From NCBI RefSeq assembly GCF_009914755.1, contig NC_060931.1: 64,000 nt of DNA. One strand, 5' to 3'. The translations under genes were made by a program, and so were the position numbers. Shown here piece by piece: positions 16,106-17,805 of the stretch. The stretch comes from the human T2T-CHM13v2.0 reference genome, Homo sapiens. Each line of letters begins with the position of its first letter. The first letter of the stretch is position 1. The notes beneath the pieces are model-generated. The model was not told the DNA's origin and made no database searches. It saw only the letters and a list, made by a program, of their open reading frames with translations.

Positions 16106-16539
16106 TTAGCCCAGGTTTCTGAGCCTAAAGTACTAGCATAAACAACAGCTCCCCCAAAAAAGAACTATAGCTTACAGGGTGCCTCCTGAGTGCCAGGGAC
16201 AGGCCCAAGCAAGATTCTGTGGATTCTGATGCAACCACATTGACACAGTATCATCCCCCTCTTCCAAAGGAAGAGACCGAGGCTCAGAGAAGAACAGTGA
16301 CTTGACCAGGGGCTCCTGGTGGGTAAAGGATGGGAGGCAGGCTTGAACCCGAGCCTGTCAGACTCCAAGCCTGTTGGCCGTCCACTCTGCAAGTCTGATC
16401 TCAAAGGCAGTTGGCCCAGTTCCTCAACATAGTGAAACTGAGGCTCAGAGAGGTTTAGGCCCTTGCCTAAGGTCACACAACTGGGCAGAAAACCCAGGTC
16501 TTTGAACCTCACATCCAATCCTGTTCAGGCACTTTCCTG

Positions 16540-17110
16540 GCTCCTCTGCAGTGAGGCATAGCTTGCTTTGGCCAACGAGTGTGACCAAAGTGACATGTGT
16601 CACTCCAGATAGAAGCTTTATGGGTCAGCGGCCGGGCGCGGTGGCTCAAGCATGTAATCCTAGCACTTTGGGAGGCTGAGGCGGGCGGATCACGAGGTCA
16701 GGAGATCGAGACCACAGTGAAACCCCGTCTCTACTAAAAATACAAAAAATTAGCTGGGCGTGGTGGCAGGCACCTGTGGTCCCAGCTACTCAGGAGGCTG
16801 AGGCAGGAGAATGGTGTGAACCCGGGAGGCGGAGCTTGTAGTGAGCCGAGATTGCGCCACTGCATTCCAGCCGGGCAACAGAGCGAGACTCCATCTCAAA
16901 AAAAAAAAAAAAAAAAAAGAAGCTTTATGGGTCAGCGCATGAGCCATGGGTCCCTTCACCCACCCAGTGAGCACAAAAGCCCATGTTAAGACACAGCCTC
17001 CTCTGCCTGGGGCTGTGGGCAGGGCCCCCAGCAGGGACACACAGCATCAGGGTGGAGACACTGAGACGGTGGGCGTGTTTGTTATGCAGCAGGTCTAATC
17101 CACACTGACA
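16540..17110 (+). mobile_element. Old MaLR LTR (MLT1J/K-like) interrupted by AluY
   Basis: TTGCTTTGGCCAA...AAGTGACATGTGTCACT...AGAAGCTTTA motifs and a TTGTTATGCAGCA-type 3' end. Confidence 0.6.
16630..16917 (+). mobile_element. AluY with the 12-bp left-arm deletion (AluYd/AluYc-type lineage)
   Basis: GAGACCACAGTGAAACC shows the deletion. Long poly-A tail; 19-bp TSD AGAAGCTTTATGGGTCAGC at 16611-16629 and 16918-16936. Confidence 0.88.
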
Positions 17111-17232
17111 GGCACTACCTCCAGTCCTCCATGACCACCCATGGCTCCCCGATACCACAAGGCTTCACCGGGGGTCACACAGCCCACCCTGCTTTGGGGC
17201 AAGACCTGCACCTTACCCGCACCCCTACTTAC

Positions 17233-17401
17233 TGGTATCCGTGAAAGCTGGGACGCCCCTGGCCCTAAGGCCCTGGCCCTGAGCTGCCTCCGCCGCCTCC
17301 TCCAGCTGGTGACTGTCGAAGGTGACGCTCCTCACTATGCCCGGGTCTGGTGTGCCTGCCACACTGGGCTCCTCAAGGCACTGGCTCCCGACAGAGCCCA
17401 T
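17233..17401 (-). CDS. SLC29A4: SLC29A4-like coding exon with start codon (169 coding nt), MGSVGSQCLEEPSVAGTPDPGIVRSVTFDSHQLEEAAEAAQGQGLRARGVPAFTDT
   Basis: ATG at 17401 in a strong Kozak context (GCTGCCATGG). Upstream polypyrimidine tract with CAG acceptor at 17410-17408; GTAAGT donor at 17232-17227. Within ORF 17225..17497. Confidence 0.92.
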
Positions 17402-17805
17402 GGCAGCCTGTGCTTTGGAGAAAGCAGAGAGCAGGTGAGGGAAGAAGGGTGAGAAGACACCCCATGTCTTTTCACCCTTCTGGGGTGAGGGACCCATGGC
17501 TCATGCACTGACCCATAAAGCTTCTATCTGGAGTGACACATGTCACTTTGGTCACACTCATTGGCCAAAGCAAGCTATGCCTCACTGCAAGGGAGCCAGG
17601 AAAGTGCCTGAACAGGACTGGATGTGAGGTTCAAAGACCTGGGTTTTCAGCCCAGCTGTGTGACCTTAGGCAAGGGCCTAAACCTCTCTGAGCCTCAGTT
17701 TCACTACATTGATGCCATGCGACTGGGACTGTATCCCCTGGGGGGACCGTCCTTTCTGTCCATCCATAGGACATTAATTTAAGCAGATAAGCAATGTCAC
17801 CTGGT

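What the first reader, a model, noticed from the sequence alone, without database searches (positions are those of the whole stretch)
16424..17712. ~230-bp inverted duplication bracketing the start-codon exon
Seen: 17483-17712 is the reverse complement of 16424-16629 plus 16937-16961 (about 10 differences, several being CpG decay). The copied unit crosses a MIR-like/MLT1-like boundary, so this is a local duplication, not two independent repeats. The arms enclose ~520 bp that includes the ATG exon (17233-17407) and both of its splice sites. Inference: in pre-mRNA they could form a long dsRNA stem that loops out the initiator exon, favouring exon skipping, single-exon back-splicing (circRNA) or ADAR editing. 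At the DNA level they could mediate an inversion that flips the start exon.
Basis: partly seen in the sequence, partly recalled or inferred. Interest (0 to 1): 0.8.

Follow-up and report, generated by a model that had tools for sequence, protein, structure and literature searches.

The report
Inverted repeat around SLC29A4-derived start exon
A real 232-base inverted duplication brackets the start-codon exon here, but it was inherited from the working SLC29A4 gene on 7p22 and shows no clear sign of selection, so it is most likely a duplication scar that can form a long RNA hairpin with untested effects.

Summary
Arms 16424-16630 + 16938-16962 and 17481-17712 are reverse complements, differing by 9 substitutions and 1 one-base indel in 232 positions. 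This is the only one of 1003 inverted pairs of 150 bp or more in the window at 93% identity or more. The left arm is split by a + strand Alu (16631-16917) with a perfect 20-bp target-site duplication.

It is not specific to this locus. The same arms, Alu and spacer orientation occur at the parental SLC29A4 locus (chr7:5.405 Mb) and in a 7q11.21 copy. Only 1 substitution and 1 indel separate left from right arms in all three loci. So the order was inverted duplication, Alu insertion, then soon after the segmental duplication (4.0% divergence).

Folding of the sense RNA pairs 204 + 23 positions. The RefSeq model starts at the ATG and excludes the upstream arm. A retained CpG island 4-5 kb upstream and a strand bias in substitutions suggest longer transcripts.

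The arms diverge at the neutral rate (17/461 against 4.04%). In sense RNA, 11 of 12 transitions are G·U-compatible, but against the local mutation bias this is marginal (p about 0.04-0.06).

Skipping, circRNA, editing and inversion remain untested. No fixed inversion is seen in 3 of 3 loci. Interest is modest.

The parts
16424..16630 (.). Left arm, outer part (207 nt). In sense (- strand) RNA it is the downstream arm, lying in the intron after the ATG exon. Its first ~90 nt are MIR-like.
   Evidence: Dispersed MIR-like matches fall at 16431-16510.
16631..16917 (+). Alu inserted into the left arm after the inverted duplication. It is antisense in the - strand transcript. The 20-bp target-site duplication lies at 16611-16630 and 16918-16937.
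   Evidence: D7, 20/20 identical. (Metazoa_SRP sub-threshold matches at 16631-16733 and 16753-16899, + strand). The right arm lacks the Alu. The same Alu is present in the parental and 7q copies.
16938..16962 (.). Left arm, inner part (25 nt), pairing with 17481-17505.
   Evidence: I8. (23 pairs in the MFE structure).
16963..17232 (-). Spacer, part 1: the first 270 nt of the intron downstream of the exon. A GTAAGT-type donor follows 17233 on the - strand.
   Evidence: sequence read directly.
17233..17401 (-). SLC29A4-derived first coding exon (56 codons + 1 nt). The ORF is open and differs from the parental copy at 4 of 56 residues.
   Evidence: Hub annotation. (translations of the three loci).
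17402..17480 (-). Spacer, part 2: the few nt upstream of the ATG, then the polypyrimidine / acceptor region. A 35-bp indel at about 17448-17482 is present here and on 7q but absent from the parental locus. It folds as a small hairpin at the inner edge of the right arm.
   Evidence: alignment. (hairpin in the MFE structure).
17481..17712 (.). Right arm (232 nt), uninterrupted. It is the upstream arm in sense RNA. It ends about 73 nt before the putative acceptor here and about 40 nt before it at the parental locus.
17807..18100 (-). Alu in sense orientation upstream of the exon. It is inverted relative to the Alu at 16631-16917, giving a second, weaker cross-exon pairing (net -155 kcal/mol).
   Evidence: (I3).
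15803..16105 (-). Alu downstream in the same intron as the left arm. It can pair with the Alu at 16631-16917 within one intron (net -236 kcal/mol).
   Evidence: (I2).
21601..22801 (.). Retained CpG island (GC 0.74, CpG obs/exp 0.71), homologous to the island at parental chr7:5400450-5401400. It is the likely promoter / first non-coding exon region from which a transcript containing both arms could start.
   Evidence: The strand asymmetry of substitutions flips across it.

Best explanation
The feature is a 232-bp local inverted duplication that arose in the ancestral SLC29A4 gene on 7p22.1. One copy lies just upstream of the acceptor of the first coding exon, and the other lies 270 nt downstream of its donor.

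An Alu then inserted into the downstream copy. Shortly afterwards a segment of more than 32 kb, carrying the SLC29A4 promoter island and 5' exons, was duplicated to the chr7 pericentromere. It was duplicated again later across the centromere.

The window holds one of those copies. Since the segmental duplication the arms have drifted at the neutral rate. I therefore read the repeat as a duplication scar, not a selected element.

Its expected molecular behaviour is inferred, not shown. In any pre-mRNA that starts upstream of 17712, the arms should form a 204-bp + 23-bp duplex that loops out the 169-175-nt ATG exon. That would make a good ADAR substrate. Together with the flanking inverted Alus, it would also bias the exon towards low-level back-splicing or skipping.
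For: Shown:
- The repeat is real and unique in quality within the window.
- The same arms, the same Alu at the same site and the same spacer orientation occur at chr7:5405298-5406558 and chr7:64832948-64834231.
- The window is collinear with the parental locus over 10360-42933 at 92.7-94.7% identity, and with the 7q copy at 98.8%.
- ENT-family (PF01733) exons lie just downstream of the parental locus at chr7:5414642-5418362 on the + strand. This identifies it as the 7p ENT gene; the name SLC29A4 comes from the hub table and recall.
- Only column 219 and a one-base indel separate all left arms from all right arms. The other differences are lineage-specific. The arms were therefore about 99% identical when the segment was copied.
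- Arm divergence between the window and the parental locus is 17/461 (3.7%) against 1222/30235 (4.04%) for the whole segment, so there is no constraint.
- The MFE fold of sense RNA pairs 204 + 23 positions here and 205 + 18 at the parental locus. Net duplex energy is -287.5 kcal/mol for the outer 206 nt. That equals or exceeds each of the three local inverted Alu pairs I computed (-155, -236, -287).
- A CpG island is retained 4.2-5.4 kb upstream.
- Sense-strand C>T + A>G exceed G>A + T>C by 32:18 downstream of the island, against 42:65 upstream (Fisher p = 0.006). This fits germline transcription of the - strand through the arms.

General mechanism: back-splicing is facilitated by reverse-complementary matches in flanking introns, and ADARs bind them (abstract of PMC8938519, seen in the listing).
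Against: - No transcript data were available, so formation of the stem in vivo and any effect on splicing or editing are inference.
- The only annotated model here starts at the ATG and excludes the upstream arm (hub table).
- Two weak signals point away from pure neutrality. First, 11 of 12 independent transition differences between arms are G·U-compatible in the sense RNA and A·C mismatches in the antisense RNA. The binomial p is 0.003 against 0.5 and 0.037 against the local 0.64; Fisher against 32:18 gives p = 0.058. Second, there are 0 differences in 464 arm positions between the window and the 7q copy, where 3.4 are expected (Poisson p = 0.035).
- One column (21) carries the same change in both arms of the pericentromeric copies. 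This could be a compensatory change or a gene conversion.
- The age estimate assumes little gene conversion between arms before the segmental duplication.
- Which arm is the original copy is unresolved.
Confidence: 0.65

Rival explanations
1. The hairpin is a selected, primate-lineage regulatory RNA structure of SLC29A4, inherited by its pericentromeric copies. By looping out the ATG exon it tunes start-exon inclusion or yields a single-exon circRNA, and pairing in the sense transcript has been maintained by selection.
For: - 11 of 12 transitions keep G·U pairing in the sense RNA only.
- The sense duplex is about 20 kcal/mol more stable than the antisense duplex in both loci.
- One both-arm change occurs at column 21.
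- There are 0/464 differences between the window and 7q arms.
- The arms lie 40-73 nt and 270 nt from the splice sites.
Against: - Total arm divergence equals the neutral rate (17/461 against 4.04%). If selection had removed the A·C-making half of transitions, the total should be clearly lower.
- The transition bias is only marginal against the local strand-asymmetric spectrum of 32:18 (p = 0.037-0.058).
- Transversions that break pairs occur in both loci (columns 77 and 61).
- No paper links SLC29A4 to a circRNA or to editing.
Confidence: 0.12
2. The inverted repeat is much older than the segmental duplication and looked young at that time only because gene conversion between the arms kept them alike.
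For: - Column 21 has the same derived base in both arms of the pericentromeric copies.
- Close inverted repeats are known substrates of intrachromosomal conversion (established knowledge, recalled).
Against: Since the segmental duplication, arms within a locus (9 and 7-8 substitutions) are no more alike than orthologous arms between loci (10 and 7). Conversion has therefore been rare over a period worth 4% divergence. The MIR-like part shows none of the decay expected if the two copies had long separate histories.
Confidence: 0.15
3. The arms act at the DNA level as a recombination switch that inverts the 518-bp spacer and so flips the start exon.
For: The arms are in inverted orientation at 96% identity, 518 bp apart.
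Against: - All 3 of 3 paralogous loci keep the same spacer orientation after 0.7-4% divergence.
- The longest perfect tract is 52 bp here and 85 bp at the parental locus. This is below the roughly 200 bp usually needed for efficient mammalian homologous recombination (recalled, not tested).
- The Alu breaks the left arm.
Confidence: 0.03
4. The arms are two independent insertions of the same repeat family, not a duplication.
For: Part of each arm is MIR-like.
Against: The arms are 96% identical over 232 nt, against 76-91% over 83 nt or less for dispersed relatives. About 140 nt of each arm has no dispersed relatives at all.
Confidence: 0.01

Closest known systems
Reverse-complementary matches (RCMs, mostly inverted Alus) in introns flanking circularised exons
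   Same: Complementary sequences lie in the two introns that flank one exon, close to both splice sites. The predicted duplex is at least as stable as each of the three local inverted Alu pairs computed. Inverted Alus also flank this same exon.
   Different: The match is a unique local duplication (MIR-like plus single-copy sequence), not a pair of Alus. It is much closer to perfect: 96% against 90% or less for every Alu pair in the window. No back-splice junction has been shown.
Mouse Sry, whose single exon is circularised through long flanking inverted repeats (recalled)
   Same: A locus-specific, non-SINE inverted duplication brackets a single exon that carries the start codon.
   Different: The Sry arms are tens of kilobases long and circularisation is demonstrated. 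Here the arms are 232 nt and nothing is demonstrated.
Long intronic dsRNA substrates of ADAR hyper-editing
   Same: A duplex of more than 200 bp with 2 mismatches and 7 G·U pairs is predicted in the sense RNA.
   Different: Editing was not examined. The two papers holding both 'SLC29A4' and 'A-to-I' are, by title and abstract start, on unrelated topics and were not opened.
Pericentromeric segmental duplications of 7p22 genes (SLC29A4P1, TNRC18P3 nearby)
   Same: The whole structure sits in a copy of more than 32 kb, 93-95% identical to SLC29A4's 5' region, with a second copy at 7q11.21.
   Different: This part retains an open first coding exon and a CpG island and is annotated as a predicted protein-coding gene, not a pseudogene (hub table).

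Membership tests
Intronic reverse-complementary match flanking a back-spliced or skipped exon | Complementary sequences in both introns flanking the exon | tested here: inconclusive
   The arms flank the exon in DNA. The annotated model starts at the ATG, so the upstream arm is intronic only if transcription starts upstream. The CpG island at 21601-22801 and the strand asymmetry make that plausible.
Intronic reverse-complementary match flanking a back-spliced or skipped exon | Stable predicted duplex between the two sequences in the sense transcript | tested here: met
   204 + 23 pairs in the MFE structure. Net energy is -287.5 kcal/mol (outer) and -66 kcal/mol (inner).
Intronic reverse-complementary match flanking a back-spliced or skipped exon | Observed back-splice junction or exon-skipped isoform | not testable with these tools
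   No RNA-seq was available. Literature searches found no circSLC29A4.
ADAR hyper-editing substrate | Long, nearly perfect intramolecular dsRNA | tested here: met
   In silico only: 204 paired positions, of which 7 are G·U, plus 2 mismatches.
ADAR hyper-editing substrate | Clusters of A-to-G mismatches in cDNA | not testable with these tools
   No transcript data. One search listed two papers holding both terms; by title and abstract start they are on unrelated topics, and they were not opened.
Segmental duplication of SLC29A4 5' region | Collinear homology of 1 kb or more at 90% identity or more to the parental locus | tested here: met
   Window 10360-42933 matches chr7:5412619-5381500 at 92.7-94.7%. 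ENT-domain exons lie next to the parental segment.
Alu retrotransposition into the left arm | 7SL-derived dimer, poly-A tail and flanking target-site duplication, with an empty site in the sister copy | tested here: met
   SRP-model matches at 16631-16733 and 16753-16899. 20/20 target-site duplication. The right arm shows the uninterrupted site. The subfamily (Y-like) is only recalled from diagnostic positions and was not tested.
MIR SINE (outer part of arms) | Many dispersed, diverged genomic copies of the same core | tested here: met
   34-36 dispersed matches per search at 76-91% identity, confined to 17626-17708 / 16431-16510. The name MIR itself is recalled.
MLT1 LTR (inner part of arms) | Dispersed genomic copies that align to the segment | tested here: not met
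   6 of 6 matches of 16918-17130 are the three paralogous loci. No dispersed match covered 17481-17625. The search is insensitive to old repeats, so this does not exclude an old LTR.
NAHR inversion substrate | Long perfect identity tract, and inverted alleles observed | tested here: not met
   The longest perfect tract is 52 bp here and 85 bp at the parental locus. 0 of 3 paralogous loci are inverted.

The most novel reading that the evidence does not exclude
The working SLC29A4 (PMAT) gene acquired a near-perfect 230-bp hairpin around its start-codon exon, at a date I estimate as catarrhine or hominoid. The sense-strand-specific retention of pairing (11 of 12 transitions are G·U only in the sense RNA; 0/464 changes between the two youngest copies) would then reflect selection for an RNA structure. 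That structure would control start-exon inclusion or produce a lineage-specific circRNA, and it would be carried into two transcribed pericentromeric copies.
Probability: 0.1. Interest if true: 0.6.

Novelty: new member of a known kind. Interest (0 to 1): 0.3.

Why it matters
The window copy on its own matters little, because it is one of two pericentromeric copies of a gene fragment.

The useful result is that the hairpin belongs to the functional SLC29A4 gene, a monoamine and organic-cation transporter. There it brackets the exon that holds the start codon, 40 nt from the acceptor and 270 nt from the donor.

If the stem forms in vivo, it is an unusually clean non-Alu test case. It would show how a single dated complementary pair affects skipping, back-splicing and editing. 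It also comes with three natural paralogous versions that differ by known mismatches and by a 35-nt spacer change.

If nothing happens at the RNA level, it is an ordinary duplication scar.

Tried and rejected
- Polarity of the duplication (which arm is the source). Searches of the own genome with each outer junction and the inner junction found no dispersed repeat copy crossing any arm boundary. Polarity stays open. My impression that an old LTR continues from the left arm to about 17115 is recall only.
- Protein identity of the exons. Pfam on four single-exon translations gave 0 families for 4 of 4. PDB sequence search with the 56-aa exon gave 0 matches. Identity as an ENT-family gene rests on PF01733 exon matches next to the parental locus and on the hub's gene names.
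- Known RNA families. The Rfam scan of 15700-19100 at E up to 0.1 gave 13 matches. All lie in Alu elements (SRP, mir-1268, mir-3135; all below gathering score) and none lies in the arms.
- Selection on the stem. I considered the G·U bias as evidence and downgraded it after measuring the local polarised substitution spectrum.
- Literature. These term sets gave no paper on a circRNA, an editing cluster or this repeat: SLC29A4 + circRNA (5 papers; in the one opened SLC29A4 is one of the model's mRNA genes, the other four judged from listings only), SLC29A4 + A-to-I (2 papers, unrelated by title), the pseudogene / LOC names (3 papers, unrelated by title), circSLC29A4 variants (0 papers), and SLC29A4 + exon 2 / intron 1 (no listed title on this repeat). 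Supplementary circRNA or editing tables were not searched and could hold entries.

Full report
**Observation**

The sequence and the repeat finder show inverted arms 16424-16628 / 17508-17712 (205 nt, 96%) and 16918-16962 / 17481-17525 (45 nt, 91%). Together they make one 232-nt unit. The right arm, 17481-17712, is uninterrupted. The left arm is 16424-16630 plus 16938-16962.

The interruption is a + strand Alu at 16631-16917. Its supports are:
- a poly-A tail;
- sub-threshold SRP-model matches at 16631-16733 and 16753-16899;
- an exact 20-bp target-site duplication at 16611-16630 / 16918-16937 (D7).

The right arm preserves the empty site, so the Alu entered after the inverted duplication.

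The arms differ by 9 substitutions and a one-base indel. Of 1003 inverted pairs of 150 bp or more in the window, only this one reaches 93% identity or more. The best Alu pair reaches 90.0%.

**What the arms are made of**

The outer ~85 nt of each arm resembles a dispersed repeat core. 36 of 44 matches, and 34 of 40 in each, are scattered over many chromosomes at 76-91% identity over 83 nt or less. I call this MIR-like from recall.

The remaining ~140 nt matched only the three paralogous loci (6 of 6). The unit therefore spans repeat and non-repeat sequence and must be a duplication. The 'MLT1-like' label could not be confirmed.

No dispersed match crosses either outer edge. I therefore cannot say which arm is the source.

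**Origin**

The assembly holding the window is searchable. The exon plus right arm recurs at chr7:64832948-64833427 (100% as reported) and at chr7:5405298-5405741 (89% with gaps). The opposite arm lies at chr7:64834027-64834231 and chr7:5406354-5406558.

A three-way alignment shows the same arms, the same Alu at the same site and the same spacer orientation in all three loci.

The window is collinear with chr7:5381500-5412619 over 10360-42933 at 92.7-94.7%. That range reaches the end of what I fetched. The window is collinear with the 7q copy over at least 9001-44999 at 98.8%.

PF01733 (nucleoside transporter) exons lie at chr7:5414642-5418362 on the + strand, just beyond the parental segment. 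They recur at chr7:57253690-57257420, which is the annotated SLC29A4P1. So the window carries the promoter-proximal part of an SLC29A4 copy, and the repeat is a feature of SLC29A4 itself.

**Order and age of events**

Among the six arms, only column 219 (C in all left arms, T in all right arms) and one single-base indel separate left from right in every locus. All other differences are specific to one lineage. The arms were therefore about 99% identical when the segment was copied.

Substitution divergence is 4.04% (1222/30235) between the window and the parental locus. It is 0.72% (229/31649) between the window and 7q.

Within-locus arm differences are 9 here and 7-8 at the parental locus. 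Between-locus differences for orthologous arms are 10 and 7. The two sets are similar, so there has been little concerted evolution since.

The order is: inverted duplication, Alu insertion, 7p22-to-pericentromere duplication, then 7p11-7q11 duplication.

With a recalled primate rate of about 1.0-1.2e-9 per site per year, these divergences correspond to roughly 17-20 and 3-4 million years. This is inference, not a measurement.

**RNA level**

Folding the - strand of 16400-17740 gives an MFE of -826.2 kcal/mol in which the arms pair. The pairs number 204 in the outer helix (7 of them G·U) and 23 in the inner helix. The Alu forms a side domain. The parental sense RNA gives 205 + 18 pairs.

Net duplex energies:

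| Pairing | Net energy (kcal/mol) |
|---|---|
| Repeat, outer helix | -287.5 |
| Repeat, inner helix | -66.1 |
| Alu 16631 x Alu 17807 (cross-exon) | -155 |
| Alu 16631 x Alu 18702 (cross-exon) | -287 |
| Alu 16631 x Alu 15803 (within intron) | -236 |

The loop is 518 nt. The upstream arm ends about 73 nt before the putative acceptor here and about 40 nt before it at the parental locus, because of a 35-bp indel. The downstream arm begins 270 nt after the donor.

The RefSeq model begins at the ATG (hub table), so as annotated the upstream arm is not transcribed. Two observations argue for longer transcripts:
- A CpG island is retained at 21601-22801 (GC 0.74, obs/exp 0.71). It is homologous to the parental island at chr7:5400450-5401400.
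- Substitutions polarised with the parental copy show a sense-strand excess of C>T + A>G over G>A + T>C downstream of the island (32:18) and the reverse upstream (42:65; Fisher p = 0.006). This is the pattern expected of divergent germline transcription (recalled principle).

**Selection**

Arm divergence between the window and the parental locus (17/461, 3.7%) matches the regional 4.04%.

Eleven of 12 independent transition differences between arms give G·U in the sense RNA and A·C in the antisense RNA. The binomial p is 0.003 against 0.5. It is 0.037 against the locally measured 0.64, and 0.058 by Fisher against 32:18.

If selection had removed the disruptive half of transitions, total divergence should be well below neutral, and it is not. 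I therefore attribute most of the bias to transcription-associated mutation plus chance.

The 0/464 differences between the window and 7q arms (3.4 expected, p = 0.035) and the both-arm change at column 21 remain weak hints only.

**DNA level**

All three loci keep the same spacer orientation. The longest perfect tract between arms is 52 bp here and 85 bp at the parental locus. An inversion switch is unlikely.

**Literature**

None of the term sets tried returned a paper on an SLC29A4 circRNA, an editing cluster or this repeat:
- SLC29A4 with circRNA (5 papers; the one I opened uses SLC29A4 as one of the mRNA genes of its model, the other four were judged from their listings);
- SLC29A4 with A-to-I (2 papers, unrelated by title, not opened);
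- the pseudogene and LOC names (3 papers, unrelated by title, not opened);
- circSLC29A4 spellings (0 papers);
- SLC29A4 with exon 2 / intron 1 (no listed title on this repeat).

Supplementary tables were not searched.

The general principle that reverse-complementary matches in flanking introns promote back-splicing, and that ADARs act on them, is stated in the abstract of PMC8938519 (listing).

**Verdict**

The event is older than this locus and belongs to SLC29A4.

The RNA hairpin is thermodynamically compelling but functionally untested, and the sequence evolution looks neutral. It is a new example of a known kind of element.

Interest is modest. It rises if transcript data show arm-dependent skipping or circularisation of the PMAT start exon.

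Noticed in passing
window 17448-17482: A 35-bp indel sits at the inner edge of the right arm. It is present in the window and the 7q copy and absent from the parental locus. It is itself a small inverted repeat that folds as a hairpin, and it moves the arm from about 40 to about 73 nt upstream of the acceptor. It looks like a short template-switch event, or a palindrome deletion in the parental copy. 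The direction is unknown without an outgroup.
   Followed up: partly
window 10360-21600 against 22800-42084: Substitutions on the window / 7q lineages, polarised by the parental copy, show opposite strand asymmetry on the two sides of the CpG island at 21601-22801 (32:18 against 42:65; Fisher p = 0.006). This suggests divergent germline transcription from the duplicated SLC29A4 promoter.
   Followed up: partly
window 10360 and 89690-93420 (outside the window): The SLC29A4 copy is split. The 5' part (promoter island to the exon at 13376-13467) ends at window 10360, which corresponds to chr7:5412619. The ENT-domain exons reappear about 79 kb away at SLC29A4P1 (chr7:57253690-57257420, - strand), on the upstream side of the 5' part. 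The predicted gene LOC124906636 therefore joins SLC29A4 5' exons to unrelated downstream exons.
   Followed up: no
window 17410: A substitution (G here and on 7q, C at the parental locus) lies in the AG-rich stretch just upstream of the ATG. It shifts the position of the candidate acceptor AG by 2 nt between the copies.
   Followed up: no
window 35867-37079: About 1.2 kb of the window has no counterpart in the collinear parental alignment, and the parental coordinates of the two flanking blocks overlap by about 300 bp. This points to an insertion or a small rearrangement in the pericentromeric copies.
   Followed up: no
window 16751-16802, 17924-17975, 18817-18868, 15920-15971: Sub-threshold Rfam matches to mir-1268 and mir-3135 all fall inside Alu elements. 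They are Alu-derived look-alikes, not separate genes.
   Followed up: no
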